From a virus (Duplodnaviria; Heunggongvirae; Uroviricota; Caudoviricetes), in IMG/VR virus record IMGVR_UViG_3300010429_001251: a stretch of 64,000 nt of DNA, one strand, 5' to 3'. The translations under genes and the position numbers were made by a program. The notes under the pieces were generated by a model. The model did not search any database, was not told the origin of the DNA, and saw nothing but the letters and a program-made list of their open reading frames with translations. Of the stretch, positions 8,030 to 58,772 are shown in pieces; position 1 is the first letter of the stretch; each line of letters opens with the position of its first letter.

Positions 8030-8046
8030 TCCCTCCTCCCAAACGT

Positions 8047-8070
8047 AGCTCTTAATTGAGCTTTTTTCTT
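8047..8070 (+). terminator. Rho-independent terminator (AGCTC-ttaatt-GAGCT followed by TTTTTTCTT)
   Basis: 5-bp GC-containing stem and a T-tract directly after the stop codon at 8029. Confidence 0.55.
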
Positions 8071-8183
8071 GTTTAAATCGTTTTTAACGGGGTTAAAAAT
8101 TTCAATATATACTTTGATACCTAAATAACTTTTTAAACCCCTTAACGATTAACAGCAACTTATCAGGTTTAACATTTTAATTG

Positions 8184-8212
8184 TTTACACGTTTAAATTT
8201 ATATAATATACT
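8184..8212 (+). promoter_or_regulatory. Putative sigma-A-type promoter TTTACA-N17-TATACT upstream of the replication initiator gene
   Basis: Good -35/-10 match with 17-nt spacing in a 330-nt intergenic region. Confidence 0.4.
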
Positions 8213-8272
8213 GAACAAGTGAGGTTTTAAAAAATACATACAGCTAAAAGAAGAATTATTCTACAAAATCTT

Positions 8273-8331
8273 CCTCTTTAGACGTTAGCTGTTATGTTAA
8301 CCTCACAATCTAAAGAGGATTTCCTTTTTTG
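8273..8331 (+). promoter_or_regulatory. Leader hairpin (10-bp stem CCTCTTTAGA/TCTAAAGAGG, 26-nt loop) followed by a T-tract; possible attenuator or RNA structure in the 5' leader of the initiator gene
   Basis: Perfect 10-bp inverted repeat followed by ATTTCCTTTTTTG, 30 nt before the ATG at 8363. Confidence 0.35.
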
Positions 8332-8362
8332 TTTGTATGGTTAAGTGTTCTGGGAGTTATAA

Positions 8363-9229
8363 ATGGATCAACCGAATTATTATGCGATTATACCTGCCTC
8401 TGTCAGATATGATAAAAATCTAACAGAAGGAGCTAAATTATTATACGGAGAAATAACAGCCCTAGCTAATCAACAGGGATTTTGTTTTGCTTCTAATAGA
8501 TATCTTTCTAAAATATATGATGTTAGTAAAGATACTATAACAAGATGGATAGGACAGCTTGAGAAACAAAACTATATTATTTCAGAGATAGTAAGGGATC
8601 CCGAAACTAAAGAAGTTATTCAACGTAAAATATTTTTAGCAGAAACGATACCTACCTGCAAAAATACGGATACCCCTACCGGTAAAAATACGGATACCCC
8701 TACCTGCAAAAATACGGAGTATAATAATACAAGTGTTAATACTACAAGTGGGAATAGCGACCCCCCAAAAAAACTACATAGATTTGATAGTGAGAGAAAA
8801 AATTTAGAAAATGTTATTTTAGATTTAGGTAAATTAAAACCAATTAAACCAGATTTACAGAAAATGGTTCTCAAATATACCCCAGATAATAATTTAGCAG
8901 AATGGATATTGGAATTTTTAGAGCATTATAAACAGTTAAATAAGGGTTATCCGTCTCCTATAAGTTTTAATTCAATGTTAGAAAAATTAACAGCTATGTC
9001 TGCTCACTATAAAAAACCAGCAATTGATATAGTTAAGGGAACTATAGAACGAAATTGGAAAAGTTTTTTCGTAGATGAGGAGTTTGTTAAGGGAGGTCAA
9101 AATAGACCGTTAGACCCGTCAGATAGGGGCTTAGACAAAGATAAAGTATTACATCACGCAAAATTAAGAGAAAATAAAGACGAGTGGGATGCTTATTTAA
9201 AGGCTAATACGGTTAGCGAGGAATTTTAG
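8363..9229 (+). CDS. Replication initiator / replisome organiser (DnaD-like N-terminal HTH) containing an internal iteron array
   Basis: N-terminus AIIPASVRYDKNLTEGAKLLYGEITALAN resembles phage replisome-organiser/DnaD-like winged-HTH domains. The gene carries three tandem 24-nt repeats and is followed by a helicase-loader gene. Confidence 0.55.
   Translation: MDQPNYYAIIPASVRYDKNLTEGAKLLYGEITALANQQGFCFASNRYLSKIYDVSKDTITRWIGQLEKQNYIISEIVRDPETKEVIQRKIFLAETIPTCKNTDTPTGKNTDTPTCKNTEYNNTSVNTTSGNSDPPKKLHRFDSERKNLENVILDLGKLKPIKPDLQKMVLKYTPDNNLAEWILEFLEHYKQLNKGYPSPISFNSMLEKLTAMSAHYKKPAIDIVKGTIERNWKSFFVDEEFVKGGQNRPLDPSDRGLDKDKVLHHAKLRENKDEWDAYLKANTVSEEF
8645..8718 (+). repeat. Iteron-like tandem direct repeats (3.3 copies of the 24-nt unit CCTACCTGCAAAAATACGGATACC); candidate origin of replication
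   Basis: Near-perfect 24-nt tandem repeats inside the initiator gene, encoding the CKNTDTPTGKNTDTPTCKNT peptide repeat. Confidence 0.6.
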
Positions 9230-9231
9230 TA

Positions 9232-45480: not shown

Positions 45481-46215
45481 ATGGGTAGAACGAAAAAGAA
45501 ACCTAATGATGACGATGATGTAATAGTTCCAGAGGTAATAACTCCAATGCCTTTGGCTAATTCTTTTGTATGTAATTATACTGATTATAAAGAAGACGAT
45601 TTTATTTGTCTATGCGCTGTTAGTGGAAGCTCAGATAAAACTATAGAGAATTATTTACAATGTTTTGATCCGCCAGATGGGGCTGATGAAGAGCAAATTA
45701 AAGGACTAGCCCATGCTTTAAAATTAAAATTATATACTCAAATTCAAGAAAAAAGAAAAGAGTTACGAGCTCAGGGCTTATTAAAAGAAATGGAAACTAC
45801 AGGGTGTAGCCTTAGACAATTAGCTTTTATAGAACATTATTTATTTAGTAGTAATAAGAGTACTAGAATTATAGATGCCTATAGATTAGCTTATGGTGGA
45901 GAGGGTGTTCCTCCTCATATGTTAAAAGTACAAGCATATAAGGTATTAAACTGCGCCACGGTTAAAACAGCTATTGAAAAATATAGAAAGCAAATGGAAG
46001 AAGACTTAGGTTTATCTTTTGCAGAGTATTTATTAGAACTAGATCAAAATAGAGAACAAGCCAGAAGATTTGGACAAGTTAGTGCAATGAATGCTGCTAC
46101 AGTAGCTAAGGGTAGAGCTATGGGCTATGATAAAATTAATATCAAGAATGAAGATACGGAACGTACTATTGAAGATTTATTGCAAGAAGTGAAGAATTCA
46201 AAGGAAGCAAAGTAA
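45481..46215 (+). CDS. terS: Terminase small subunit (Terminase_2-like, HTH)
   Basis: Central AFIEHYLFSSNKSTRIIDAYRLAYG...KVQAYKVLNCATVKTAIEKYRKQMEE matches the small-terminase family pattern. Confidence 0.5.
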   Translation: MGRTKKKPNDDDDVIVPEVITPMPLANSFVCNYTDYKEDDFICLCAVSGSSDKTIENYLQCFDPPDGADEEQIKGLAHALKLKLYTQIQEKRKELRAQGLLKEMETTGCSLRQLAFIEHYLFSSNKSTRIIDAYRLAYGGEGVPPHMLKVQAYKVLNCATVKTAIEKYRKQMEEDLGLSFAEYLLELDQNREQARRFGQVSAMNAATVAKGRAMGYDKINIKNEDTERTIEDLLQEVKNSKEAK

Positions 46216-46287
46216 TTCACACCTAGCAGCAGCGTTTTTAAAGGGTTTATTTTATGGGTCAGGTCATTTAATACCTGCTCAAAAAAT

Positions 46288-46316
46288 AAACCCCTTAGTT
46301 ATGGGGTTTTATATTT
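46288..46316 (+). terminator. Rho-independent terminator (AAACCCC-ttagttat-GGGGTTT plus a T-tract) ending the plus-strand block
   Basis: 7-bp stem followed by TTTTATATTT in a convergent intergenic region. Confidence 0.55.
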
Positions 46317-46350
46317 AATAATAGTTAATTATACCCAATTTACAGGGGTA

Positions 46351-46430
46351 TTTTTAAGGGGTTTAAGGGTTAGGGGTGTATTAAGTACCTTGAAAACTTA
46401 AAACCCCGTTAAAAACGATTTTAACAGGGT
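46351..46430. repeat. G4/C4 inverted-repeat element, copy A (TTTTAAGGGGTTTAAGGGTTAGGGGTG...AAACCCCGTTAAAAACG)
   Basis: About 80-90 nt element; a directly repeated homologue lies at 58705-58772 and related copies at 8080-8160 and 41320-41450. Confidence 0.5.
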
Positions 46431-46454
46431 TTTAAAGGGTTTATATTTTAGTGA

Positions 46455-46646
46455 TTAATCACAAATACATCTGCAGGTTCTTAAGTCATCCTTATTTACT
46501 TGTTGAATCTCAGGATTTTGTATTTGTTCGTTTGTTTGGCGAGTTTGTATTAATGTAGGTAAGGTTAATGCTGCCACTACGCCTATTACAGCCAAAGTCA
46601 CTAAAACTTCCGCCATGGTGAATCCTTTATTCTTTCGCATCAACAA
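46455..46646 (-). CDS. Prepilin-like small protein (type IV pilin/pseudopilin N-terminal class III signal)
   Basis: KGFTMAEVLVTLAVIGVVAAL matches the G|F-T-x-x-E prepilin cleavage/methylation motif followed by a hydrophobic helix. Confidence 0.45.
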   Translation of the reverse strand: MLMRKNKGFTMAEVLVTLAVIGVVAALTLPTLIQTRQTNEQIQNPEIQQVNKDDLRTCRCICD

Positions 46647-47454
46647 TAGTAGCCCCTCCTCCTATTACTCTTGCGCCAAGAGGATAATGCCCATCCCATT
46701 TTTTAACTTCTTCAAGTTTAACAATGGAGGGATTTTTAGCAATAGCTTGAGCTGTAATCGTTAAAGCCTCAGCTTCAGCTTTTGCTTTGGCTACAGTTAT
46801 TTGAGCATCTCTTTGCGCTGCCTGGTATTCGTATTCTTTCTTTTGAGCTGTTTGCTGCATAACTTGTTTTTCCTTAATTGCAGCTTCGTACTGGTCATCA
46901 AAGTCCACATTAGTAATAGGCGTATCCATAACTAATATAGCTGGTTTTTGATTTTGCTCATTAATTACAACTTGCTTTGCTATAATAACCAGATCTTTTC
47001 TAACCTGTTCTCTACTTGTTACAAATTCACTAGCTGTATATTTTCCAGCTACTGCCTTGATGGCATCTTGAATTTTAACTCTTGCAAATACATCATAAGG
47101 ACTGCCCGAATATTTGATAATCGTATCCGATATATCCTGAGAAGGATTTGTATAGATAACGCTATATTTAATATCAATAGGCTGGTTATCTTTTGTATAA
47201 GCTTGAGCCTCTTCCGCTCTGTTCATAGGTCTAACGTTCACTTTTATAGCATCCTCAATCCAAGGAGTTTTAAAGTGCATGCCTTCATTGATTATTTCTG
47301 TACCTACTACTCCCAGTCTTTTAATAACTGCTTTTTCGCCTGAGTTTACAAAGTAAATAGGATTAAACAGTAAAAATCCTATTATACCAACTACGATTAG
47401 AACTACAGCCGCAATAGCTATAAGTTCTGCATTTGCTTGTCCGTTTCTTTTCAT
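46627..47454 (-). CDS. SPFH / band-7 (prohibitin/HflKC-like) membrane protein
   Basis: N-terminal TM, then GEKAVIKRLGVVGTEIINEGMHFKTPWIEDAIKVNVR typical of SPFH. The start is moved to the internal ATG at 47454, behind an AGAGGA RBS. Confidence 0.7.
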   Translation of the reverse strand: MKRNGQANAELIAIAAVVLIVVGIIGFLLFNPIYFVNSGEKAVIKRLGVVGTEIINEGMHFKTPWIEDAIKVNVRPMNRAEEAQAYTKDNQPIDIKYSVIYTNPSQDISDTIIKYSGSPYDVFARVKIQDAIKAVAGKYTASEFVTSREQVRKDLVIIAKQVVINEQNQKPAILVMDTPITNVDFDDQYEAAIKEKQVMQQTAQKKEYEYQAAQRDAQITVAKAKAEAEALTITAQAIAKNPSIVKLEEVKKWDGHYPLGARVIGGGATIVDAKE

Positions 47455-47509
47455 TTTCTTTCGTCCTCTTACTTTACTACTAATACATTTTTTGATGTTG
47501 TGGCTCCTC

Positions 47510-47857
47510 CTAATTCCACTTAGCATCTTTTGGTTTCACTGCTTCTATTTGTTCTACTAGTTTTTCTAAATTTGCAGGCATAGCTTCTACATTTAAATCC
47601 AATCCCATTTTATTGGCGGCGTAAATAGTATAGATTAACGATAAAACCTCTGCCATTGGTAGATGATTATCATCTACTACTTTTTCAAGAGTCATACCTA
47701 AAGCCTTAATAATGTTCATCGGTGTTCCTGTTATAAGGCTTTTAACATGCGTATAAGGGTCTTCCACTTTTAGTTGAATATCTACATAACCCGCATCTAC
47801 CATTTGTCTTTGTTTTTCAGGTAGTTCATCTAATAATTTTTTCATTTCTTCATCCAT
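47510..47857 (-). CDS. hypothetical protein
   Basis: 115-aa ORF. Confidence 0.4.
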   Translation of the reverse strand: MDEEMKKLLDELPEKQRQMVDAGYVDIQLKVEDPYTHVKSLITGTPMNIIKALGMTLEKVVDDNHLPMAEVLSLIYTIYAANKMGLDLNVEAMPANLEKLVEQIEAVKPKDAKWN

Positions 47858-48071
47858 TTTTTAAACCTTCCTTCGCTTTATTAAACTCTTCATCATAACG
47901 TTCCAGATCTGTTTTATTAAAGTAACCTTCCCCACAACCTGTACATCTTAATAGACTTAGATTATGTAAGTTTACTTGTCTTGCTTCAGTAGCGCTGATT
48001 CTAATAAAAGTAGTCATAGTTTGATTGTCTAATCTTATTAAATCAGCATCGCATTGTGGACATTTTTTCAT
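47850..48071 (-). CDS. zinc-ribbon protein
   Basis: CPQCDADL...CTGCGEGYF. Confidence 0.35.
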   Translation of the reverse strand: MKKCPQCDADLIRLDNQTMTTFIRISATEARQVNLHNLSLLRCTGCGEGYFNKTDLERYDEEFNKAKEGLKNG

Positions 48072-48084
48072 TCTAAATTCTCCA

Positions 48085-49350
48085 TTAATTAGACTTAAAA
48101 TTGTAAACGGGGTGTAAAATATCTACTATCTCAATAGTATCCTTAGTATTTTCAATTATATCACTCATATTTTTATAAGCCATTGGAGATTCATCTAATG
48201 TATTTCTGTTTACACAGGTAGAGTAGACCATCTTCATTGATTTTTGGTACTCCTCAAGGTCAAGAGCTGTTTTAGCTTTACTTCTACTCATTAGTCTACC
48301 AGCTCCGTGAGGGGCTGAGTAGTTCCAATCTTTATTGCCTTTACCTTTGGCTAAAATAGAACCATCTCTCATATTTATAGGAATAAGTAGTATCTCACCT
48401 TCCATAGCTGAAACTGCTCCTTTTCGTATAAAACCATCCGGTGATATATAATTATGGATAGTTTCAAAGGTTGATAATTGGAAGTTAGTATCTCCTCCTG
48501 AGATGAATTTAATAATCTTTGAAGCTATTTCTAGCCTATTTATAGATGCAAATTGTTGAGCTACTTGCATATCGTATAAGTAATTCTCAGCTAAGCCTCC
48601 TTCTAAAAAGCATAAGTCTTTGTGAAGGCTATCATAAATATTTCTATCAATACAGTCTTGTATAAAGTCGTCTACATCTACTTTAAATACATCTCTATGA
48701 TTATGTATAGCATTATGAAAATCTCTACTTTTTTGTTTGCAGTATTCATCCGCTTTGTTTTGATAGTACGTGGCTATTTTATGTCCAAAGTTTCTACTTC
48801 CTGAATGGATTATAAGAAACTTATCTTTAGCTGCATTTTCAGCTATTTCAATGAAGTGATTCCCTCCTCCAAGAGATCCTAAAGATTTTAAATGGCGCTC
48901 ATATGTTTTAGAATCCCCTATACGATTGCATACATCTTTAATTCCATTAGAGTTTTTATCGGTTATTAAAGAGTTTATCTTTGGGTTAACTTCATTGCCG
49001 TGAGGTATACTCTTTCTAATGAACATATCCAAGTAGCCATAACTTAAATCAGCTTGACCTAGTCTAACAGTTAACATTCCGCATCCTATATCTACCCCAA
49101 TTAAATTAGGAATAATTCGACTTGTAGACATAGTAGATGTAAAACCTACAACACACCCTTTGCCTGCGTGTACATCTGGCATTATTTTTATAGATTCATT
49201 TTTAAACATAGGGTGGTTACAGATGCTGTAGATTTGTGAGATTGCTTCTTGTTCCACATTGTCTGTGTAAATTGCTGCTGTATTGTATTTTCCAGTTACT
49301 TCAATCATAATATCCTCTTTCTTTATCTTTCTCATCAGCTGGCTCCGCAA
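48085..49350 (-). CDS. rtcB: RtcB-family RNA 3'-phosphate ligase
   Basis: RtcB motifs: PDVHAGKGCVVGFT, GGGNHFIE, IHSGSRNFGH, and C-terminal APHGAGR-like motif. Confidence 0.8.
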   Translation of the reverse strand: MRSQLMRKIKKEDIMIEVTGKYNTAAIYTDNVEQEAISQIYSICNHPMFKNESIKIMPDVHAGKGCVVGFTSTMSTSRIIPNLIGVDIGCGMLTVRLGQADLSYGYLDMFIRKSIPHGNEVNPKINSLITDKNSNGIKDVCNRIGDSKTYERHLKSLGSLGGGNHFIEIAENAAKDKFLIIHSGSRNFGHKIATYYQNKADEYCKQKSRDFHNAIHNHRDVFKVDVDDFIQDCIDRNIYDSLHKDLCFLEGGLAENYLYDMQVAQQFASINRLEIASKIIKFISGGDTNFQLSTFETIHNYISPDGFIRKGAVSAMEGEILLIPINMRDGSILAKGKGNKDWNYSAPHGAGRLMSRSKAKTALDLEEYQKSMKMVYSTCVNRNTLDESPMAYKNMSDIIENTKDTIEIVDILHPVYNFKSN

Positions 49351-49600
49351 AGTGCGTATTATAGTTATTAGGTATTAATGCTTTTTCTTTAAAGGCTTGG
49401 GATATAGACATCCATTTTTGTTCTGCTTCTATATATACTTCTAAATCTTCCGGAAACATGGTATCCATCCACTCTTTACAGTAAAAGAATACTTCAAATA
49501 AGGATGTAGTGTTAAATGCTCCGGTAGATCCCTCTTCACCTGTTTTTATAACTCTTGCTTTTACCATGATACTAGAAACCTCTCCTGACTCCCTGCACAT
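49301..49600 (-). CDS. hypothetical protein
   Basis: 99-aa ORF. Confidence 0.35.
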   Translation of the reverse strand: MCRESGEVSSIMVKARVIKTGEEGSTGAFNTTSLFEVFFYCKEWMDTMFPEDLEVYIEAEQKWMSISQAFKEKALIPNNYNTHFAEPADEKDKERGYYD

Positions 49601-49794
49601 TCACTAAAATCATTTCCGGAATATGCTACGGAATATCCTAAATCAGTTAACCGCATACGCTGGCTACCGTTTAAATTCCAATAAAACATACAATAATGTC
49701 CTAATTTAGCTTGTTTTTGTATAGCCTCAAATATGGGCTTAAGATCATCGTCTTTAGTGTTGCAGGTTATTTGTCTCGCTTCTTCAGCTCTCAT
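49561..49794 (-). CDS. hypothetical protein
   Basis: 77-aa ORF. Confidence 0.35.
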   Translation of the reverse strand: MRAEEARQITCNTKDDDLKPIFEAIQKQAKLGHYCMFYWNLNGSQRMRLTDLGYSVAYSGNDFSECAGSQERFLVSW

Positions 49795-50065
49795 TTAGTA
49801 TCTCCTTTAATACTGTATCTGTTGTAGCATTATATGCTAAAGCTAGTAGTGTTCTTTTTACAGCTTTTCTTTCTTTTGATGTAACTTCCTCTAAGGGTTT
49901 ATTCAACCTCTGAGCTGCTAAAGCCCTATACACATCCGATTGTAGTATACACGGGTCTGAACAAAGTTTAGGTTCTATATAATAATTAGCCATTACTCTA
50001 GGCTCTTGAGCTACATAATCTTCGGGGGGAAATGGAAGCATCAATGGTTTAGGTTTTTCTATCAT
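49784..50065 (-). CDS. hypothetical protein
   Basis: 93-aa ORF. Confidence 0.35.
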   Translation of the reverse strand: MIEKPKPLMLPFPPEDYVAQEPRVMANYYIEPKLCSDPCILQSDVYRALAAQRLNKPLEEVTSKERKAVKRTLLALAYNATTDTVLKEILNES

Positions 50066-50066
50066 A

Positions 50067-50249
50067 TTAAAATACCTGTTTAAATTTTAAATTATCTATT
50101 ATTTTCAGTAATACTTTAACTTGTTCTAAGGAAAGTTCGTCCACATACATATTAGGATTTGTAGACTGCATACAGTTCATTCCTTCAATTAAAGTTTTCT
50201 GAGCCTTAATAATATTATCCATATCAGTTAAACTAAAAGATAAATTCAT
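50067..50249 (-). CDS. hypothetical small protein
   Basis: 60-aa ORF. Confidence 0.3.
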   Translation of the reverse strand: MNLSFSLTDMDNIIKAQKTLIEGMNCMQSTNPNMYVDELSLEQVKVLLKIIDNLKFKQVF

Positions 50250-50983
50250 AAGATAGCCTCCTGCTTCCCTTGCACCGTAATCCCTTTATAAGTGTACAGC
50301 CCTTTATATTTTTCATTATTTAAAACTCTCTTAACTAACATAGGATAAATCTTTAAAGTTATTCCAGAACGCTGGTACACTCTTTTTATAGAATTTGAAA
50401 TATACTGGTATCCGTACCCCTGATTGTGTAGATTAAAAATTTCTCTAACTATAACAGCTTCATCCTCATTTAAGACTAATTGCTTATTCTCAGCCGTATA
50501 GCCAAAAGGTGGGCGACCAGCACAGTAGCCGCCTGTTTTAGCCTTTTGGATTTTACCGGCACACAATCTTTCAGTAATCCTACTCCTCTCGAATTCTGAA
50601 AATGCGCCGATAATCTGCCTCATTAATCTCCCCGTTGGATCATCTGCCCTAAGTGGTTCTGCCACCGATATGATCTCTATCCCGAATTTTAGTAACTCTT
50701 TTTCTATGAATAACTGTAGCATTAAGTCTCGGGCAATTCTATCAAGTTTCGCCACTATGACATGTTTAAAGCCACCTTCTTTTGCAGCCACAAACATATC
50801 AGATAAAGCTGGCCTTATTTCTTTAGATCCCGACACGCCCTCTTCAATAAATTCTTGAACTAACTCTAAATTATGCAGCTTGCAATATCTTTCGATATCT
50901 TCACGCTGAGAGTCAAGTCCAAATTTATCTTCACCGAGCTGGTTCTCGGTAGAAACTCTAAGGTATGCTACAGCCTTATTCAT
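50246..50983 (-). CDS. Serine recombinase (resolvase/invertase family)
   Basis: N-terminal catalytic motif AVAYLRVSTENQ and the downstream resolvase-domain pattern (DRIARD, DPTGRLM). The likely start is the internal Met (MNKAVAYLRVS). Confidence 0.75.
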   Translation of the reverse strand: MNKAVAYLRVSTENQLGEDKFGLDSQREDIERYCKLHNLELVQEFIEEGVSGSKEIRPALSDMFVAAKEGGFKHVIVAKLDRIARDLMLQLFIEKELLKFGIEIISVAEPLRADDPTGRLMRQIIGAFSEFERSRITERLCAGKIQKAKTGGYCAGRPPFGYTAENKQLVLNEDEAVIVREIFNLHNQGYGYQYISNSIKRVYQRSGITLKIYPMLVKRVLNNEKYKGLYTYKGITVQGKQEAIL

Positions 50984-52988
50984 AAATAACTCCTTTATCA
51001 GATTCAATTAAATTATCACTTTGTATCTTATAATCTTCATTTAATTTGCGTAAACTTTTATGTAGAACCTGTAAAAGTATTTCACAATCTTCTACTTTTA
51101 ACATATCTTTTCTACAAAATCTTCTTTGTACGTTACGGAGGTGGGTAAGAAGAAAGTTTTTTAAATCTTCTTCTTTACTCTTTCTAATATCATCTATAAG
51201 ATAACGGTCTTTGGTGTGTAATATAGCTTCATAACTAGGATAAAGAGGATGTTGTGAGTTAAGATATCCGAATGTTTTATCTAAGATTGGGTTTAATAGT
51301 TTAAGGTTTTCTAAATGTTCTTTATGCCGTGTATGGGGGTTTAATCCTCTGATTACATTATTATCATTCACGTAGTTATATAAGAATTCATCAAATTCGT
51401 GAGAATTCTGCCTAATAAATCTGGAATAAGTAGTGGAATAAACATCCCCGTTATATTCTATTCTTTCATTATCACTAGGATATCTAGTGTTTTTCTGAAT
51501 ATAATTTATAATAAGCTTAACCCAAAATGTTCTAGAAAGCTTGTTTAAGTGATATTTATTACAAATCTGTTCTAAAGTGGTGTAGTGGGTTATCGTATAT
51601 CTAGAATTTACTTCAAAATTTAGTTGATAAAAAACCTCTAATATATCTAAATTTGTGCATTGTGTTCTTTCTTTATTTACAGCAATTTTGGCAATTTTAA
51701 GATATTTTTTATTACTACTAATTATTCCTTTAGCTGTATTCTTTTTGGTTTTATATTTTAAGATATTATGAGTAGTTAAGGAGGTAGCTAGTTCCATAGT
51801 GGCAGCTGTAACTATTTTTTCTTCTTCAAAGCCTATCTTATAAAACCGCTTAGTTATATCTTTACCATTTCTTCTAGATAATCTACTAAATAGCTGATAA
51901 ATTTTATTTAGATTTAGAGTGCCGCTTAGATCTACTATATTTTCTAAATCTACATAGTTAAACCCTAATAAAGCTCTTTGAACTACTACTAAACATTTTA
52001 TAGACGTATTTTGTTTAAAATATTCGATATTTTTACTGTCAGAATCTTCGTTAGTACACGATAATACAGAAGAAATTCCTAATTTAATTAGCAGATTATG
52101 TAAATATTTAGCAGCTTTCTGATTATGGCATACAATCAAGGTTTTTTCTAAATTATTTTTTAATTCTTTAAATTCGTTAATGACTTCTATGTGTTTAATC
52201 CAATCTGTATCACTCTGTATCTGCACTAGCTTATCAAATTTAAAATTCAAGATATTAAATTGAACTTTTATTATAGTTTCAAAAATTTCCTGTAAAGTTA
52301 TTCTTATATCAATATCTGGTATATCTAGGGTTTCTTTCAATTCTTCTGTATCTGTGTATATATCTTTAACACTCCCGAAAGACAAAGGAGTAGATATAAT
52401 ATAATAACGCATATCAGCGAACCATTTTTCCCCTAATTGTTTAGATTTAGTATATAGATCTAAGAATGTATGTCCTATTAATTTATATCTAGGGCTCATA
52501 TCATTTTCGTATAAAAAACAAGAGGGTGTCGCTGTTAATAGTAGCTGTTTATTGATGTTATTTTTAATTAAAATTTCTTGATTTTCTGTAGATAGATATC
52601 TGTTATGCGCTTCATCTACTACTAATAAATCAATATCTAGGGGTTCTTTATTTTTAAATGTTTGTGGAAGGGTTATGATAACATTGGCGGTATAATCAAT
52701 ATCGTCGCCAGCATTAAGCATTTGAATCTTATATTTAGGATTTAAACTACATAAAATTTCTTCATAATTTTGAAGTTTTAGTACAGTCTGCCCCTCTGCA
52801 AAAAATACTACTCTATTATAACCATTTTCTAACAAGTGTTCTATTACTTTAGCGGCTATAAATGTTTTTCCTGAACCTGGAGGTTCCATTAATACAGGAA
52901 TCAAGTCAGTAGTTTTAATAATAGTTAGAATATTTTGTATATCTTCAACTTGGTAATCTCTTAAAGATTGTTTTAGAATAGTTTGCAT
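50976..52988 (-). CDS. DEAD/DEAH-box superfamily-2 helicase
   Basis: Walker A LMEPPGSGKTF, DEAH motif LLVVDEAHN, TAT-like motif LLLTATP. Confidence 0.65.
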   Translation of the reverse strand: MQTILKQSLRDYQVEDIQNILTIIKTTDLIPVLMEPPGSGKTFIAAKVIEHLLENGYNRVVFFAEGQTVLKLQNYEEILCSLNPKYKIQMLNAGDDIDYTANVIITLPQTFKNKEPLDIDLLVVDEAHNRYLSTENQEILIKNNINKQLLLTATPSCFLYENDMSPRYKLIGHTFLDLYTKSKQLGEKWFADMRYYIISTPLSFGSVKDIYTDTEELKETLDIPDIDIRITLQEIFETIIKVQFNILNFKFDKLVQIQSDTDWIKHIEVINEFKELKNNLEKTLIVCHNQKAAKYLHNLLIKLGISSVLSCTNEDSDSKNIEYFKQNTSIKCLVVVQRALLGFNYVDLENIVDLSGTLNLNKIYQLFSRLSRRNGKDITKRFYKIGFEEEKIVTAATMELATSLTTHNILKYKTKKNTAKGIISSNKKYLKIAKIAVNKERTQCTNLDILEVFYQLNFEVNSRYTITHYTTLEQICNKYHLNKLSRTFWVKLIINYIQKNTRYPSDNERIEYNGDVYSTTYSRFIRQNSHEFDEFLYNYVNDNNVIRGLNPHTRHKEHLENLKLLNPILDKTFGYLNSQHPLYPSYEAILHTKDRYLIDDIRKSKEEDLKNFLLTHLRNVQRRFCRKDMLKVEDCEILLQVLHKSLRKLNEDYKIQSDNLIESDKGVIYE

Positions 52989-53000
52989 ATTATCAGCTCC

Positions 53001-53357
53001 TTATATAACTATATCCTCTTCTTTTAGTGGGAATGCTTGTCCGTAGCGAGTAGTAACAACCCTATTCCATTTATTACATCTCATATTTTCATATAAGATC
53101 GATCCTGGTTGTTCTACAGCTATTTCTTCAATGGTTTTAACTGTTCCTTTATAATATGTAGGGCTTGTATTAAAAGCAGTAGTAGATCTTTTAACCATTT
53201 TTCCGTCTACTTCTACCTCATCTTCCATAACATCATAAAATTGGTAGGCGTAACAGTTATCACCTGATTTGTAGGCTTCTCTTGATTCTATTTCTTTTAC
53301 ATTAGAATCAGAAACCATAATTCCTGGATAGTATTCTCTTACATAGTGTTTTAGCAT
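53001..53357 (-). CDS. hypothetical protein (last gene of the E1-JAB operon)
   Basis: 118-aa ORF, 9 nt downstream of the E1-like gene. Confidence 0.4.
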   Translation of the reverse strand: MLKHYVREYYPGIMVSDSNVKEIESREAYKSGDNCYAYQFYDVMEDEVEVDGKMVKRSTTAFNTSPTYYKGTVKTIEEIAVEQPGSILYENMRCNKWNRVVTTRYGQAFPLKEEDIVI

Positions 53358-53366
53358 TATTTTCTC

Positions 53367-55025
53367 CTATCTTATTTTTATATGGCTTGGAATTGGATTT
53401 GTTGTGCATTCGATATGATAAAAAGGTTGCTCTCTACCCTCTTCAGTTTCACGTATAGCGCAGGTTATGAAGGTTGACGCATATTTGTATATATCTATAA
53501 TATTTTGTTTAACACAGGTATTATCTACGGGCTTACGTACTATTTTAAATTGATGTTCATTAATAAATTGTAAGCAGTGTTCTTTACATTCGTTTGATTC
53601 GCATAAGAAATAAGTTCTTCTACTAGAATCGTCTAAAGGTTGGCACATATTTAGATCTATAGCGTAGTCGTTTGTTAATAGTCTGCGAACTCTAGCACAG
53701 TTTTTAACAGGGCGCTGCTGTTCAAAAAAGTAGCTTACATCATCTATAGTGTATGGTTTAAACACATCAAAAGCAGCCTTGTCTACTAAAAGTCTTTCAT
53801 GATAGTGCGCTACTTGTTCCTCATTGCTCATATCAATAAAATAAATGCTGGCATCAATATCATCATATCTAAGATCAATCAAGTATTTAGATTCTATCAT
53901 GCCATTTTGTAGCCACTGAAAAGCTTCTAATCGGGTTTCAATAGTGTCAAATCCTAAGATAATATATTTAGATCTTACATACTTAAAATTTATCTTCTGA
54001 AATGGTCTGTTATGTCCCTTGGCTTTTTTATTTAAGTATTTTAAATAAGCTACAGATGCCTCGGATTTAGCCTTTGATACATCATTCTTATTATAGAATT
54101 GATTTCTCAAATTTTTATTTTCCACAGAATCAAAGTCTATTAATTTAAAAGTATTTAAAAAAGTAAGTCTTGACATTTGATCTAATAAATTAGTACCTGC
54201 ACTACCTAAGCCTAGGCAGATTACATCTTTAGTTACTTTTTGTAAGTTTTCATAGCCTCGGCTAATCTGTTCTCCGGTTATCTCGGGATAGCAGGTTGAT
54301 TTATTTTTAGTGCGTCTAGTAATATAATAATGGTCATCTTGTCTAAGTTTTTTAAAAACAGCCTCACTATAAAAACTTAGATTAACCTCATTTATATTGT
54401 CCGGTAAGCAATCAGCGCAGTATCCTGTATATAAATAAATTGGGTTATCATCGGGAGTAATACATACTTTACAATCCCTACAAAATACGGCTTTATCAGC
54501 ATGTTTAAGACTTACATGCTTTTGAAGGTAGATTTTAGCAGGATCGTAAGCACTACTAGGATTAGGTTTTTCTAAAAAATTGATTAAATGCCAAACTACA
54601 TTTATATCTTCAAACACATCTTTGCATTTAAAATCATTACAAAGGGATTGAGTAGTAAAATATGTGCCTACTCGTACACTTGTTTGATAAGGCATATCTT
54701 CAGTAGGCTCTACAGCTTCATATAACTCTATATCACTTGGAGTAGGAAAAACATTATAGTGCATTATTTTAGTCTTTTTAGGTTTAATTATTCTAATATT
54801 CTCTGAAGAATTATTCACTAAAAATTGAAGCTTAAATGATTCTGTTTTCCCTGTTAGTGGAATAGGAAGATTAGCGGCTCTAGGTGCTGTAATTAACCAA
54901 TACTCTGCACCACTGTAATCTACGTACTTTTTCTTTTTAATAGATTTAATACGTGTTTTAGTAGTAGTTTTGTCTATTTCTGTCTTTTTAACCACGCTTG
55001 GGGCAATAGGTGTTTCTACAGTCAT
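53367..55025 (-). CDS. E1-like (ThiF/MoeB/UBA-type) adenylyltransferase with N- and C-terminal cysteine-rich regions
   Basis: Rossmann region VICLGLGSAGTNLLDQMSRLTFLNTFKLIDFDSVENKNLRNQ matches the E1/ThiF consensus (GxGxxG ... lvDfDvVelSNLnRQ). Cys clusters CRDCKVC..CADC and C..C...C..C. Confidence 0.7.
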   Translation of the reverse strand: MTVETPIAPSVVKKTEIDKTTTKTRIKSIKKKKYVDYSGAEYWLITAPRAANLPIPLTGKTESFKLQFLVNNSSENIRIIKPKKTKIMHYNVFPTPSDIELYEAVEPTEDMPYQTSVRVGTYFTTQSLCNDFKCKDVFEDINVVWHLINFLEKPNPSSAYDPAKIYLQKHVSLKHADKAVFCRDCKVCITPDDNPIYLYTGYCADCLPDNINEVNLSFYSEAVFKKLRQDDHYYITRRTKNKSTCYPEITGEQISRGYENLQKVTKDVICLGLGSAGTNLLDQMSRLTFLNTFKLIDFDSVENKNLRNQFYNKNDVSKAKSEASVAYLKYLNKKAKGHNRPFQKINFKYVRSKYIILGFDTIETRLEAFQWLQNGMIESKYLIDLRYDDIDASIYFIDMSNEEQVAHYHERLLVDKAAFDVFKPYTIDDVSYFFEQQRPVKNCARVRRLLTNDYAIDLNMCQPLDDSSRRTYFLCESNECKEHCLQFINEHQFKIVRKPVDNTCVKQNIIDIYKYASTFITCAIRETEEGREQPFYHIECTTNPIPSHIKIR

Positions 55026-55101
55026 AAGTTTCTCCTTCTATTCATAAGCCATCGTCAGTGCGGCTATTTGCCGCAGACCGCTCAGTTAAGAGCGGTTTCG
55101 G

Positions 55102-55755
55102 CTATACTCCTGCTTCAACTATAATTGCTTTCATGTCTTCCAGACATTCCTTATACTCACCTTCCTCTGTAAAAAGACCTTTACTTTGTTCGATAAGTTC
55201 TTCTATAGTTTTGTAAGCGTTTGAATATGTTCTTGTAACTGGTTGAGCTTTTTCTTCAGTACAACCCGCTCTCTTAGCTGTAGCTACGAAAACTGTAGTA
55301 TCCGCTTTAAACTCGTCTGTAGGTTTTAAAGCTCTACCCTGACCGATTAACACGCCTGAAGATAATCCCAGATCTCTTTCAACTTGTGCTACGGTACTTC
55401 CAGCTTTAATTTCTACTTCCTCGTCCTTTTCTCTACCCTGACGGACAACCACTAATTTAACTGTAGATGCTTCCTTAACAGCCTCTTTCTTAGCAACCGG
55501 CTTTTTAGCTGGGGCTGCTTTTGTAGTTGTAGTTTTCTTAGCCGCCGGTTTTTTAGTAGATGTTTTTGAGGTAGTTGCTTTTTTAGCTGTTCCTACTAAC
55601 TCAACCTTAACCTTATCAGCATCCGCTGCTGAGATATTGCTTGATATTGTTTTGTAGGAAATTTTTAACTTATCTAAAACATCGGTAACTTCTTTATTAG
55701 TTACTCCTATTTCTTTAGATAAATCATAAATACGCACTGTTTCTTTCTTTGTCAT
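55102..55755 (-). CDS. IF2-N-like domain, K/T/A-rich linker, then a ThiS/MoaD-like beta-grasp (ubiquitin-like) domain with a C-terminal extension
   Basis: IF2_N-like VRIYDLSKEIGVTNKEVTDVLDKL and a low-complexity KKPAAKKTTTTKAAPAKKPVAKK linker. The segment VKLVVVRQG...EVEIKAGSTVAQVERDLGL...VLIGQGRALKPTDEFKADTTVFVATAKRAG follows the ThiS/MoaD pattern and ends in AG before a 50-aa tail. The start is moved to the ATG at 55755, behind an AAGGAG RBS. Confidence 0.45.
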   Translation of the reverse strand: MTKKETVRIYDLSKEIGVTNKEVTDVLDKLKISYKTISSNISAADADKVKVELVGTAKKATTSKTSTKKPAAKKTTTTKAAPAKKPVAKKEAVKEASTVKLVVVRQGREKDEEVEIKAGSTVAQVERDLGLSSGVLIGQGRALKPTDEFKADTTVFVATAKRAGCTEEKAQPVTRTYSNAYKTIEELIEQSKGLFTEEGEYKECLEDMKAIIVEAGV

Positions 55756-55772
55756 TGTGACTCTTCTCCTTT

Positions 55773-56582
55773 TCATTTTCTATTAACTATACAAGATTCA
55801 ATTGGTAATTGGAAGCCGGTTTGTTTTGCTACCTCCTTTCTATTAACTACGGCTTTTTTATATGTAACCTTTTCTTCTACGCAATTTGCTGCTACTTCTT
55901 CTTTGCATTTATTGTAAATAGGCTCAAACATATTACGATCTAATTTAGCGGGTATTTCTATGGTTAATTTAGTTGTGTGCCCATTACCTAAAAAGAACCC
56001 TGCTGAGATATTACCTGCTCGGTTTATTATTAGGTATGGGAACCCTTCTTTATCTCTGAGGTCGTTTATTTCTTCATAGTTATCCATATCTGTTTTACTT
56101 GGCTGAACCATAGATATATTAGCGTGACTGTGCCAATCAAGCACCCACTTATGTAGCTCTTTTCTAGGAACACTAGCCATAAAAGAAGCTACTGCTACCG
56201 CATCGGCTTCTGCGTGACTACTCTTCACTATTTGATTAGGAAGAATAGCTATATCGGTAACAACCCCATTCTCTATTTTGCCAAAACCGGCTATTTCTAG
56301 TTTACCTACTAGCTGGACATAACAATTCATCTTTATCCAAGCTTCCGAGGTAAATGTTATCTTTTCAGGAATGTTTCCTGTCATAAGATTTTTTAGATAT
56401 GTTAAACATTCTTGAGGTCTTACGGGTATATGGTTTATTATAGGGGTTTCTACCTCAGCTACTTCTGGGTATTCGGGTATAACTTCATTTCTAAACCCGT
56501 AGATGTGTTCATACTGAGAGGGGGGAATTCCTGGTAGTGTTCCATTTCCTTTTCGTCTACCTGTGTGCGCTTTTGATTTCAT
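55773..56582 (-). CDS. JAB/MPN (JAMM) metalloprotease-domain protein
   Basis: JAMM motif HSHANISMVQPSKTD (HxH-x8-S-xx-D) with an upstream acidic residue (SSHAEAD). Confidence 0.55.
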   Translation of the reverse strand: MKSKAHTGRRKGNGTLPGIPPSQYEHIYGFRNEVIPEYPEVAEVETPIINHIPVRPQECLTYLKNLMTGNIPEKITFTSEAWIKMNCYVQLVGKLEIAGFGKIENGVVTDIAILPNQIVKSSHAEADAVAVASFMASVPRKELHKWVLDWHSHANISMVQPSKTDMDNYEEINDLRDKEGFPYLIINRAGNISAGFFLGNGHTTKLTIEIPAKLDRNMFEPIYNKCKEEVAANCVEEKVTYKKAVVNRKEVAKQTGFQLPIESCIVNRK

Positions 56583-56585
56583 CTC

Positions 56586-57164
56586 TTACTCCTTTTCAAT
56601 TGTGTAAAACTGATTATTATTCCTATGAGCTAACTTTTGTATAAAATCCTCTACGTGTATAGGCGCATAGTTATGACAGTCTATGCCTACATCCATAGAT
56701 CTTCCAAATACCTGTGTTAATGTTCCATGCTCGTGCCCAAAGGCATGAAATGAATTATGATAGCTACAATTCCAACGTAAGTGTGGATAGTGAGAAAGCC
56801 ATACTTTATGTATTCCTACTTTTATCATTGCAGTTGTTCTAAAGTTTTGAATACGTCCATCCTTTTTAAAAGTGATGTAATCCATTTCAGGATCATGATT
56901 TCCTCCAATCACATACATTTTTATGTCTGGACGAATTTGTTTAAGCATTTGATCTATAACATCTCTTGATCTTTTACCGCCTTCATGAAGACTTATACTG
57001 TTTAAATCGCCTAAATTATAGAGAACGGCATCTTTAGGTAATTTGTTTACGTTCTCGATAATAGTCTCATTGTGTTCTTCAATTGTAGCAAACGGTCTTT
57101 TACAATGATGTAAAATGTTAAAGTGATTCAAATGCCAATCGGCAGTTAAAAACAGGTCTTGCAT
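56586..57164 (-). CDS. calcineurin-like metallophosphoesterase
   Basis: DWHLNH, GDLNS, GGNHD and GHEH motifs. Confidence 0.65.
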   Translation of the reverse strand: MQDLFLTADWHLNHFNILHHCKRPFATIEEHNETIIENVNKLPKDAVLYNLGDLNSISLHEGGKRSRDVIDQMLKQIRPDIKMYVIGGNHDPEMDYITFKKDGRIQNFRTTAMIKVGIHKVWLSHYPHLRWNCSYHNSFHAFGHEHGTLTQVFGRSMDVGIDCHNYAPIHVEDFIQKLAHRNNNQFYTIEKE

Positions 57165-57192
57165 AATTCTTTCCCTCTATCCAAACTAACTA

Positions 57193-57336
57193 CTAATCTT
57201 CTTCACTCTCGTCTTGTTCTTTTTGTATTACCTCTTCATAATGATCCAAGCAATAATATTTTCTCTCGTGGACAAGCGCTTCTGTTTCATAATCTAGCAT
57301 CTTCCCACACACGCAGCATTTGGTGTACATAATCAT
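57193..57336 (-). CDS. small zinc-ribbon protein
   Basis: 47 aa with CCVCGK...C.DH; ATGA overlap with the upstream stop. Confidence 0.3.
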   Translation of the reverse strand: MIMYTKCCVCGKMLDYETEALVHERKYYCLDHYEEVIQKEQDESEED

Positions 57337-58463: not shown

Positions 58464-58480
58464 TAGTTTCTCCTTCTAAT

Positions 58481-58666: not shown

Positions 58667-58704
58667 CTAAGATCTCCTTGTCCGTGTTTACTTCATATAA
58701 TCAA

Positions 58705-58772
58705 TTTTAAGGGGTTTATTTTTTGGGTTAGGGGTTAAACTACCTAAACAATTTTTAAACCCCGTTAACAGT
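58705..58772. repeat. G4/C4 inverted-repeat element, copy B (TTTTAAGGGGTTTATTTTTTGGGTTAGGGGTT...AAACCCCGTTAACAG)
   Basis: Direct-repeat homologue of copy A at 46351-46430; upstream of the RHH/E1-JAB operon. Confidence 0.5.

What the first reader, a model, noticed from the sequence alone, without database searches (positions are those of the whole stretch)
8645..8718. Iteron array inside the replication-initiator gene: candidate origin of replication
Three and a third tandem copies of a 24-nt unit (CCTACCTGCAAAAATACGGATACC, with one variant CCTACCGGTAAAAATACGGATACC) lie in-frame within the DnaD-like initiator gene, encoding the peptide repeat (T)CKNTDTPTGKNTDTPTCKNT.

Origins embedded in the initiator gene as iterons are classic, as with lambda O/ori and many Firmicutes phage replisome-organiser genes. 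A DnaC-like loader, DnaB and a primase follow immediately downstream.
Basis: seen in the sequence. Interest (0 to 1): 0.5.

Follow-up and report, generated by a model that had tools for sequence, protein, structure and literature searches.

The report
Iteron origin inside phage initiator gene
Three 24-base repeats inside a phage replication-initiator gene are very probably the sites where that protein binds to start DNA copying, a well-known arrangement (as in lambda, SPP1 and staphylococcal plasmids), so this is a sound but ordinary find.

Summary
Three tandem 24-nt units lie at window 8651-8722, in frame in a 288-aa gene (8363-9229) that encodes an HTH_36 winged-helix replication initiator. 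A DnaC-like loader, DnaB and a primase follow downstream. The repeat is far beyond chance and occurs nowhere else in the 64 kb.

The repeats encode part of a predicted disordered linker between the DNA-binding domain and a helical C-domain.

Across 84 dereplicated homologue lineages:
- The same linker position carries 2-4 copies of a lineage-specific DNA word at 22-24 nt spacing.
- In half the lineages, near-identical DNA copies (at most one mismatch in 12 nt) are read in different reading frames, so selection acts on the DNA and not the peptide.
- Units are usually dyad-symmetric around an A-tract.
- A conserved AATAATACA repeat with fixed synonymous codons follows the iterons.
- The protein positions that covary with the iteron arms lie in the recognition helix and the wing.

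The staphylococcal RepA_N plasmid gene has the same layout, and its intragenic Rep boxes are an experimentally defined origin.

This is a new member of a known kind. Caveats: the window's own units have weak dyad symmetry, no diagnostic unwinding element was found, and one short metagenome contig carries only one unit.

The parts
8363..9229 (+). Replication initiator / replisome-organiser gene (288 aa)
   Evidence: ORF. Pfam HTH_36 at aa 18-72, 53.1 bits against a cut-off of 25. PHROG 'replication initiation protein' families, E 1e-24 to 1e-10, and phrog_186 'DnaD-like helicase loader', E 1.3e-16. There are 2048 homologues.
8390..8638 (+). Coding region of the N-terminal winged helix-turn-helix domain (aa 10-92). 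The predicted recognition helix is aa 56-68 and the wing is aa 72-92.
   Evidence: AlphaFold2 model with pLDDT above 90 and secondary structure H22-34, H45-52, H56-68, E72-78, E85-92. The best Foldseek PDB matches are initiator N-domains 4pql, 5kbj, 4pt7 and 4pta, but they are weak (E 5e-3 to 2.5e-2). Residues 56-61 and 84-90 covary with the iteron arms.
8651..8722 (.). Three tandem 24-bp iterons, CCTACC(T/G)G(C/T)AAAAATACGGATACC, each with a central A-tract. They encode aa 97-120 of the linker.
   Evidence: This is the position of the 22-24-nt repeats found in 80 of 84 homologue lineages. The internal dyad is only 4/6 in this phage.
8722..8756 (.). AT-rich 15-nt repeat (TAATAATACAAGTGT / TAATACTACAAGTGG / GAATA), the family-wide 'AATAATACA' element that encodes NNTSVNTTSGN. 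Candidate unwinding or second recognition element.
   Evidence: TRF period 15 and D6. In the family, 76 of 84 lineages have at least 2 copies. Asn codon is AAT in 209 of 209 cases against 75% elsewhere, and Thr is ACA in 83% against 40%.
8775..8840 (.). Least stable duplex stretch downstream of the iterons (possible DNA-unwinding element)
   Evidence: The nearest-neighbour free energy of the 40-mer at 8800-8840 is at the 99th percentile of the window. Equally unstable stretches occur at 8175-8240 and 8500-8540, so this is not diagnostic.
8786..9052 (+). Coding region of the helical C-terminal domain (aa 142-230), the presumed loader/helicase-recruiting domain
   Evidence: pLDDT about 90 with five helices. 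No Pfam hit. Most homologues align only to the N-domain plus linker, covering 38-47% of the query, and carry different C-domains (none, PF09524 or PF07261).
9232..9921 (+). DnaC/IstB-like helicase loader
   Evidence: phrog_50 'DnaC-like helicase loader', E 1.3e-31.
10591..11871 (+). DnaB-type replicative helicase
   Evidence: Pfam DnaB_C, E 6.6e-25. phrog_19, E 4e-47.
12014..13060 (+). DnaG-like primase (Toprim)
   Evidence: Pfam Toprim_2, E 3.5e-11. phrog_47 'DNA primase', E 5e-43.
8184..8212 (+). Promoter-like site upstream of the initiator gene (TTTACA-17-TATACT)
   Evidence: Consensus scan, 10 of 12 matches. This is a consensus match only.

Best explanation
The three 24-bp repeats are iterons, that is, binding sites for the winged-helix N-terminal domain of the protein whose gene contains them. 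Together with the adjacent AT-rich 15-nt repeats they form the phage's initiator-dependent origin of replication.

Proposed sequence of events:
1. The initiator is made from the promoter-proximal gene.
2. Its wHTH reads the arms of each iteron through the recognition helix (aa 56-68), and the wing contacts the central A-tract.
3. Several initiators bound 24 bp apart form a nucleoprotein complex that distorts the flanking AT-rich DNA (8722-8756 and/or about 8775-8840).
4. The helical C-domain recruits the DnaC-like loader, which loads the phage DnaB. The primase then acts, followed by the phage's own Pol A, clamp and ligase.

The peptide encoded by the repeats is only a disordered linker, and its sequence is a by-product of the DNA element.

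Shown here: the repeat, the domain layout, DNA-level (frame-independent) conservation of such repeats in the family, codon-level constraint on the second element, and helix/wing-to-iteron covariation. Inferred: binding, oligomerisation, unwinding, loader recruitment, and that initiation happens here.
For: - The repeat is real, unique in the window and far beyond chance.
- The host gene is an HTH_36 initiator followed by a loader, helicase and primase.
- The AF2 model has a confident wHTH (aa 10-92) and a confident C-domain (aa 142-230). Between them is a disordered linker (pLDDT 38-50 over aa 100-140) that is exactly what the iterons and the AT element encode.
- In 84 dereplicated lineages from 160 homologue loci (plus the Fusobacterium-phage loci and the window itself), the best 12-mer in the linker DNA has at least 3 copies in 46 and at least 2 copies in 80. 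In control regions of the same genes, at least 3 copies occurred in 0 of 84 (HTH-coding DNA), 2 of 83 (upstream DNA) and 0 of 26 (C-terminal DNA). Spacings are 22, 23 or 24 nt.
- In 42 of 80 lineages the copies lie in more than one reading frame, so identical DNA gives different peptides. Examples are L155 (LVTKKS and PSDKKIT), L057 (GVSAKMP and PIGKNAS) and Fusobacterium phage FNU4 (PITKN and YHEK).
- Units are dyad-symmetric, TAnnnn-N8(A-tract)-nnnnTA. Arms match 6/6 in 31% of lineages against 2.7% of control windows.
- blastn against phages matched two Fusobacterium phages only across the repeat region.
- The protein columns that best track the iteron arm bases are residues 61, 60, 57, 56 and 58 (recognition helix) and 84, 85 and 90 (wing). 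None of 10,000 random column sets reached the same mean residual.
- The pUSA03 RepA_N gene shows the same anatomy: 23-nt boxes read in three frames, then 15-nt repeats. In its pSK41 relative, four Rep boxes within rep are the ori, the ori-encoded central domain is a dispensable linker, and the A-tract matters for binding (PMC5703833).
- TP901-1 ORF13 and Tuc2009 Rep2009 bind direct repeats within their own genes that serve as the ori (PMC8965321). TP901-1 ORF13 scores 24.5 bits on HTH_36.
- SPP1 gp38 binds the direct repeats of oriL inside gene 38 (PMC6316719).
- The 3-copy allele occurs on 5 contigs from at least 3 samples.
Against: - No experiment and no coverage data bear on this phage.
- All three copies in the window are in the same frame. 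The frame-independence argument is therefore borrowed from relatives.
- The window's unit has only 4/6 dyad symmetry, the same as the commonest value in control DNA.
- The adjacent DNA is not uniquely unstable. Equally AT-rich 40-mers lie upstream and inside the HTH-coding part.
- One 1,459-nt metagenome contig is 100% identical apart from a clean 48-nt deletion that leaves one unit. If it is real and viable, three iterons are not required.
- GC skew follows transcription and says nothing about the origin.
- The other ~37 kb of the ~101-kb genome was not examined for a second origin.
Confidence: 0.75

Rival explanations
1. The repeats are genuine initiator-binding sites, but their job is regulatory, for example autorepression by a transcription roadblock inside the gene, titration or handcuffing. 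Strand opening and helicase loading happen at another site, possibly outside the 64-kb window.
For: The family-level evidence shows selection on DNA and coupling to the wHTH, but not initiation. No diagnostic unwinding element lies next to the iterons. SPP1 has a second origin 13 kb away (PMC6316719), and about 37 kb of this genome is unseen.
Against: In every characterised relative of this layout the intragenic repeats are the origin itself. No other iteron copies exist in the 64 kb. An AT-rich repeat with fixed codons follows the iterons in 76 of 84 lineages, as expected of an origin core.
Confidence: 0.12
2. The repeat is a recent, selectively neutral slippage expansion in DNA that encodes a disordered linker. 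It has no DNA-level function in this phage.
For: The copies are nearly identical and all in frame. The encoded segment is predicted to be disordered. A variant with one unit exists in flanks that are otherwise 100% identical, so copy number is labile.
Against: Neutral slippage would not place 2-4 copies with 22-24 nt spacing at the same position in 80 of 84 diverged lineages. It would also not keep the DNA word intact across frame changes, produce dyad symmetry, or give covariation with the recognition helix. The 3-copy allele is the one recovered on all long contigs. The 1-copy contig is short and could be an assembly collapse, because copies 1 and 3 share a 20-nt exact match.
Confidence: 0.07
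3. Selection acts on the peptide. The (P-T-x-K-N-T-D-T)n and NNTSxNNT repeats would be a functional protein motif, for example an oligomerisation or partner-binding module or a length-tuned spacer, and the DNA repetition would be secondary.
For: A P-x-x-K/E-N-x-x-T ... DNNTSxNNT pattern is visible in most homologues. The AATAATACA element is in frame 0 in 220 of 236 occurrences.
Against: In 42 of 80 lineages the same DNA is translated in two or three frames into unrelated peptides. The segment has pLDDT below 50. Synonymous positions are fixed: AAT in 209 of 209 cases, and ACA in 83% against 40%. In pSK41 the ori-encoded central domain can be deleted without loss of Rep function in trans (PMC5703833).
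Confidence: 0.04

Closest known systems
pSK41-type RepA_N plasmid initiators with the ori inside rep (Staphylococcus; PMC5703833). pUSA03 rep was examined here.
   Same: The layout is a wHTH N-domain, an ori-encoded dispensable linker, and a helical C-domain that recruits replisome proteins. There are tandem boxes of about 23 bp with a central A-tract and a dyad (GTGTC-AAAAG-GACAC), read in several frames, followed by 15-nt repeats. The window protein's best structural matches are these initiator N-domains.
   Different: The Pfam family differs: RepA_N (PF06970) against HTH_36, with no sequence-level hit. pSK41 is a plasmid that uses host helicase and primase, with its C-domain binding DnaG. 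The phage brings its own loader, DnaB and primase. The window has three boxes at 24 bp and a weaker dyad.
Lactococcal P335 phage replisome organisers: TP901-1 ORF13, Tuc2009 Rep2009, r1t ORF11
   Same: The organiser binds direct repeats within its own gene that serve as the ori and give phage-encoded resistance in trans (PMC8965321). TP901-1 ORF13 has a near-threshold HTH_36 domain, a low-complexity linker and 15-nt A-rich repeats encoding LNTNIQNTEKQNT.
   Different: The relationship is only distant (BLASTP E 0.002). The C-domain is DnaB_2/DnaD-like, which is absent from the window protein. No 22-24-nt tandem units were detected in ORF13 by the repeat finder. These phages encode no helicase of their own.
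Bacillus phage SPP1 gp38 / oriL
   Same: The origin-binding 'replisome organizer' binds direct repeats inside its own gene, next to an AT-rich unwinding element. It is followed by a helicase loader (gp39) and a DnaB-type helicase (gp40). The system has been reconstituted in vitro (PMC6316719).
   Different: SPP1 has a second origin (oriR). Sequence relatedness of gp38 to the window protein was not tested here. SPP1 uses the host primase and polymerases.
Phage lambda O protein / ori-lambda
   Same: From established knowledge: there are four dyad-symmetric iterons with A-tract bending plus an AT-rich region in the middle of gene O, which encodes the linker between the DNA-binding N-domain and the P-binding C-domain. 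In-frame iteron deletions give ori-minus mutants. PHROG 'replication initiation O-like' families match the window protein (phrog_678, E 2.7e-13).
   Different: There is no Pfam Phage_rep_O hit. The host is Gram-negative and the loader is P, not DnaC/IstB-like. The lambda details are recalled, not tested here.
pPR9-type chimeric staphylococcal Rep (pfam13730 N-domain)
   Same: A phage-derived HTH_36 N-domain, swapped in together with the replication-origin segment (about 500 bp), supports autonomous replication and changes incompatibility (PMC5703833). It is the only experimental replicon cited here whose initiator is stated to carry pfam13730 (TP901-1 ORF13 scores just under the cut-off).
   Different: It is a plasmid with a pSK41 C-domain.

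Membership tests
Pfam HTH_36 (PF13730) replication-initiator N-domain | Score at or above the curated gathering cut-off (25 bits) | tested here: met
   53.1 bits, E 2.7e-14, aa 18-72 covering profile positions 1-55 of 55.
Initiators with an intragenic iteron origin (lambda O, SPP1 gp38, TP901-1 ORF13, pSK41 Rep) | Sequence-specific DNA-binding N-terminal domain, separated by a flexible linker from a C-terminal recruiting domain | tested here: met
   AF2 model: wHTH aa 10-92 (pLDDT above 90), linker aa 95-141 (pLDDT 38-50), helical domain aa 142-230.
Initiators with an intragenic iteron origin | Three or more direct repeats inside the initiator's own coding sequence, in the linker-coding part | tested here: met
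   Three 24-nt units at 8651-8722, encoding aa 97-120. The same position carries repeats in 80 of 84 homologue lineages.
Initiators with an intragenic iteron origin | Repeats maintained by selection on the DNA rather than on the peptide | tested here: met
   Met at family level: copies lie in more than one frame in 42 of 80 lineages. It cannot be shown for the window alone, because all its copies are in one frame.
Initiators with an intragenic iteron origin | AT-rich DNA-unwinding element adjacent to the iterons | tested here: inconclusive
   AT-rich 15-nt repeats at 8722-8756 and a 99th-percentile unstable 40-mer at 8800-8840. Comparable stretches occur at 8175-8240 and 8500-8540.
Initiators with an intragenic iteron origin | The initiator binds the repeats specifically | not testable with these tools
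   There is only indirect support. Recognition-helix and wing residues covary with the iteron arms.
Initiators with an intragenic iteron origin | Replication initiates at the repeats | not testable with these tools
   GC skew is uninformative. No read-coverage data were available.
Initiators with an intragenic iteron origin | Helicase loader and/or helicase encoded just downstream | tested here: met
   DnaC-like loader at 9232-9921 and DnaB at 10591-11871.
   There is no Pfam DnaB_2 hit at E up to 0.01. The only support is PHROG phrog_186 'DnaD-like helicase loader', E 1.3e-16. Some homologues carry PF07261, but this protein does not.
RepA_N (PF06970) | RepA_N domain by sequence | tested here: not met
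   There is no Pfam hit. The resemblance is only a weak fold match (Foldseek E 5e-3, TM to target about 0.48).
Lambda O (Phage_rep_O) | Phage_rep_O domain by sequence | tested here: not met
   There is no Pfam hit. PHROG 'O-like' families match at E 2.7e-13 and 1e-6, but those names are annotations, not tests.

The most novel reading that the evidence does not exclude
The origin may be a portable cassette, made of the wHTH domain plus the linker-encoded ori, across the whole HTH_36 initiator superfamily (over 2000 proteins in Bacillota, Fusobacteria and some Bacteroidota phages and prophages). In that case the widespread 'PxxKNxxT ... DNNTSxNNT' low-complexity peptide is merely the translation of the DNA element. 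The invariant AATAATACA repeat, with Asn always AAT, would be a universal and so far uncharacterised origin-core signal (an unwinding or helicase-loading site) shared by initiators with different iteron specificities. If so, origins and initiator specificities of thousands of uncultivated phages could be read directly from sequence.
Probability: 0.35. Interest if true: 0.5.

Novelty: new member of a known kind. Interest (0 to 1): 0.33.

Why it matters
For this uncultivated ~101-kb phage, the result pinpoints the likely origin and the initiator that fires it. That is useful for annotation, for building replicons or 'phage-encoded resistance' decoys, and for interpreting coverage profiles.

More generally, the comparative result gives a simple sequence rule for finding origins in the many Gram-positive phages and prophages that carry HTH_36 initiators. 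The rule is tandem 22-24-nt dyad units with an A-tract, then AATAATACA repeats, conserved as DNA whatever the reading frame. It also explains an otherwise puzzling low-complexity stretch in these proteins.

It does not change the current understanding of initiation.

Tried and rejected
- GC and cumulative skew as an origin indicator. The skew is positive over 1-46 kb and negative after, following gene orientation, so it is uninformative.
- My first chance control mixed periods 10-40, so short periods inflated the null. I redid it with periods 18-30.
- A search for extra iteron copies or a second origin in the window found none beyond chance.
- An exact 30-mer scan of IMG/VR for the same iteron gave 0 hits.
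- The primary papers on TP901-1 and r1t are not held. I relied on what later open papers say about them.
- pPR9 (GU237136) is not in the plasmid collection. pUSA03 turned out to carry a classic RepA_N rep rather than the HTH_36 chimera, and I used it as a positive control for the architecture instead.
- A profile search of solved structures by sequence gave nothing meaningful, with a best E of 0.013 to a riboflavin-kinase wHTH.
- Rfam found no RNA family over the locus at any sensible threshold, so an RNA-element reading was dropped.
- The leader hairpin at 8272-8319 was considered as an attenuator. The fold z-score is only -1.4.
- The upstream intergenic region 8030-8362 was considered as an alternative origin. 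It is AT-rich with imperfect inverted repeats, but it has no tandem repeats there. The upstream 285 nt of homologues rarely contains repeated words: at least 3 copies in 2 of 83.
Full report
**Observation.** The sequence at 8645-8722 is ACGATA followed by three 24-nt units: CCTACCTGCAAAAATACGGATACC, CCTACCGGTAAAAATACGGATACC and CCTACCTGCAAAAATACGGAGTAT. TRF scores it 122 (period 24, 2.8 copies, 90% matches). That is the best array in the 64 kb; the next best scores 52. The repeat finder places the copies at 8651-8674, 8675-8698 and 8699-8722. With periods of 18-30 nt, the locus gives 41 of 48 self-matches. The best elsewhere in the real window is 31. In 100 Markov-1 simulations the mean was 29.0, sd 1.3 and maximum 36. 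The degenerate unit occurs three times, all here, against 0.02 expected. The array is in frame in ORF 8363-9229 and encodes IPTCKNTDTPTGKNTDTPTCKNTEYNNTS.

**The gene and its neighbours.**
- The 288-aa product has a full-length Pfam HTH_36 domain (53.1 bits, cut-off 25) and matches PHROG 'replication initiation protein' families.
- Downstream lie a DnaC-like loader (9232-9921), two small ORFs, DnaB (10591-11871) and a Toprim primase (12014-13060).
- Further on are a family-A polymerase, a clamp-like protein and an NAD-dependent ligase.
- The exact protein occurs on five contigs from at least three samples. Two are ~101-kb contigs that carry the gene at very different positions, which suggests a ~101-kb circularly permuted or circular phage genome.

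**Where the repeats sit in the protein.** The AlphaFold2 model, built on 46 homologues, has three parts:
- a confident winged helix-turn-helix at aa 10-92 (pLDDT above 90);
- a confident helical C-domain at aa 142-230;
- a disordered segment between them (pLDDT 38-50 over aa 100-140).

The iterons encode aa 97-120 and the following 15-nt repeats encode aa 120-131, so both elements lie in the linker. The best PDB fold matches are initiator N-domains (4pql, 5kbj 'Rep-DNA complex', 4pt7, 4pta), followed by MarR-type wHTH proteins. Their E-values are weak (5e-3 and above), so this is a resemblance and not membership.

**Is selection on DNA or on the peptide?** This was the key question.
- blastn against phages matched two Fusobacterium phages only across the repeat region. 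Their homologous genes carry four copies of a related unit, CCTATCACGAAAAATGATGATACC, spaced 22, 23 and 24 nt. The same DNA is therefore read as PITKN in one frame and YHEK in another.
- The 120 homologous proteins listed (of 2048 found) nearly all show two to four units of the form P-x-x-K/E-N-x-x-T followed by DNNTSxNNT. The variable residues are identical among units within a protein but differ between proteins. Many also have odd middle units such as YRQKNQ or YCQNNQ.
- I fetched 160 homologue loci from viral contigs and GTDB genomes, located the ORFs and searched the 285 nt after the wHTH for repeated 12-mers with at most one mismatch.
- After dereplication to 84 lineages, 46 have at least 3 copies and 80 have at least 2. 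The controls gave at least 3 copies in 0 of 84 (HTH-coding DNA), 2 of 83 (the 285 nt upstream) and 0 of 26 (C-terminal coding DNA).
- Spacings are almost only 22 (28 cases), 23 (28) or 24 nt (54).
- In 42 of 80 lineages the copies lie in more than one reading frame, with 22+23=45 restoring the frame. Examples: L155, CCTAGTGACAAAAAGATCACTA four times, read as LVTKKS and PSDKKIT; L057, TATCGGCAAAAATGCC four times, read as GVSAKMP and PIGKNAS.

A DNA word kept intact while its translation changes shows that the DNA is the selected object.

**Anatomy of the units.** Family units have the form TAnnnn-N8-nnnnTA with a central A-tract, for example TATTGA-CAAAAAAG-TCAATA.
- Six-of-six complementary arms occur in 19 of 62 lineages (31%) against 2.7% of control windows. 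At least five of six occurs in 65% against 28%.
- The A-tract explains the recurrent 'K-N' (AAA AAT) in the peptides.
- The arms differ between lineages, as expected for specificity determinants.
- The window's own unit (TACCTG-CAAAAATA-CGGATA) scores only 4/6, so its dyad is weak. I state that as a caveat.

**Second element.** Directly 3' of the iterons, 76 of 84 lineages have at least two copies of AATAATACA-like words at 12-15 nt spacing. The density is 11.1 per kb against 1.8 per kb in the rest of the ORF. Within them Asn is AAT in 209 of 209 cases against 75% elsewhere in the same genes, and Thr is ACA in 83% against 40%. Synonymous sites are therefore constrained, which again indicates a DNA-level element. 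It is nearly always in frame 0, so a peptide contribution cannot be excluded for this part. In the window it is TAATAATACAAGTGT / TAATACTACAAGTGG at 8722-8756.

**Coupling to the DNA-binding domain.** Across 62 lineages I measured adjusted mutual information between each N-domain alignment column and each iteron arm position. After regressing out column entropy, the largest residuals are residues 61, 60, 57, 56 and 58, at the start of helix 56-68, and residues 84, 85 and 90 in the wing. The mean residual of residues 55-61 exceeds that of all 10,000 random column sets. All columns share the same phylogeny, so the contrast between columns is an internal control. The analysis is not tree-aware, however, and is supportive rather than conclusive.

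**Comparison with characterised systems.**
- *SPP1.* gp38 binds the direct repeats of oriL inside gene 38, next to an AT-rich unwinding element. Replication has been reconstituted with gp38, gp39 and gp40 (PMC6316719).
- *pSK41.* The Rep N-domain binds four Rep boxes located centrally within rep. The ori-encoded central domain is a linker that can be deleted in frame and still work in trans. Binding bends the DNA and depends on the A+T tract.
- *pPR9.* This natural chimera has a phage-derived pfam13730 N-domain swapped in together with the origin segment, and it replicates autonomously (PMC5703833).

I checked two of these directly. TP901-1 ORF13 scores 24.5 bits on HTH_36, just under the cut-off, plus DnaB_2. 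It aligns weakly to the window protein (E 0.002) and has 15-nt A-rich repeats in its linker. The pSK41-family plasmid pUSA03 has a RepA_N gene containing 23-nt boxes, GAAATGTCAAAAGGACACGTCTA, with the dyad GTGTC-AAAAG-GACAC. They are translated in three frames (EVSKGHV, QKCQKDTS, RNVKRTRL) and are followed by three 15-nt repeats. That is the same design as in the HTH_36 family and in the window.

**Mechanism proposed.**
1. The initiator's wHTH binds the three iterons, with the recognition helix reading the arms and the wing contacting the A-tract.
2. The resulting complex opens the neighbouring AT-rich DNA.
3. The C-domain recruits the DnaC-like loader, which loads DnaB. The primase and the phage's own polymerase, clamp and ligase then follow.

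The repeat, the domain layout, DNA-level selection in the family and helix/wing covariation are shown. Binding, opening, recruitment and initiation are inferred from homology and analogy.

**Weak points.**
- *Unwinding element.* The 40-mer at 8800-8840 is at the 99th percentile of instability, but so are 8175-8240 and 8500-8540 in this 31% G+C genome.
- *GC skew.* It follows gene orientation and is uninformative.
- *The one-unit contig.* A 1,459-nt JGI contig (L003) is 100% identical over about 1.24 kb except for a clean 48-nt deletion that leaves one unit. Copies 1 and 3 share a 20-nt exact match, so this could be an assembly collapse. It could also be a real recombinational deletion, like the in-frame iteron deletions of lambda ori-minus mutants (recalled, not tested). 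All long contigs carry three units.
- *Unseen genome.* About 37 kb of the genome lies outside the window and could hold a second origin.

**Verdict.** The feature is a new member of a well-known kind of origin, so intrinsic interest is modest. The family-wide regularities are the most useful by-product: frame-independent 22-24-nt dyad iterons followed by a codon-fixed AATAATACA repeat.

Noticed in passing
window 14353-14994 (gap upstream of the gene at 14995-16389): The 640-nt non-coding gap before a TROVE/Ro60-like gene (Pfam DUF2828 + DUF7788; phrog_850 'RNA-binding protein') has sub-threshold Rfam YrlA (Y RNA-like) matches. One is at 14627-14733 (32.1 bits, E 5e-5, full model length) and one at 14792-14852 (27.6 bits). 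Three tRNA T-arm-like GGTTCnAnnCC motifs are visible. This looks like a phage Ro/Y-RNA module.
   Followed up: partly
window 14370-14900: A short motif, ACAGCAAA (or TGCAGCAAA), recurs about seven times at intervals of roughly 40-120 nt through the same gap. It could be a phage-specific promoter or a processing signal for the small RNAs.
   Followed up: no
L003 (JGI 3300009776 contig, 1459 nt) against window 8060-9300: The contig is 100% identical to the window except for a clean 48-nt deletion that removes two of the three iterons. This is either a copy-number polymorphism or an assembly collapse. The 3-unit allele is on all five longer contigs.
   Followed up: partly
window 8030-8362: The leader of the initiator gene has a terminator-like hairpin after the previous ORF (8047-8062) and a promoter-like site (8184-8212). 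It also has an 11-bp perfect stem (8272-8282 / 8309-8319) followed by a T-run just before the start codon, which could be an attenuator. The fold z-score is only -1.4.
   Followed up: partly
window 1-46000 against 46000-64000: All large ORFs are on the + strand up to about 46.2 kb and on the - strand beyond, with GC and AT skew flipping at the same point. The phage carries a full replisome set (SNF2 helicase, Pol A, clamp-like protein, NAD ligase) but no tRNA genes in the window.
   Followed up: partly
homologue set and loci L005-L164: Most homologues align only to the wHTH plus linker (38-47% of the query) and carry unrelated C-domains (none detected, PF09524 Phg_2220_C, or PF07261 DnaB_2). 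The wHTH-plus-ori segment therefore seems to move as a cassette between different recruiting domains, as in the pPR9 plasmid chimera.
   Followed up: partly
loci L155, L162, L004, L145, L149 (Flavobacterium, Algibacter, Weeksellaceae): The same initiator-plus-iteron design, for example CCTAGTGACAAAAAGATCACTA four times in alternating frames, occurs in Bacteroidota genomes and phages. The family is therefore not confined to Gram-positive hosts.
   Followed up: no
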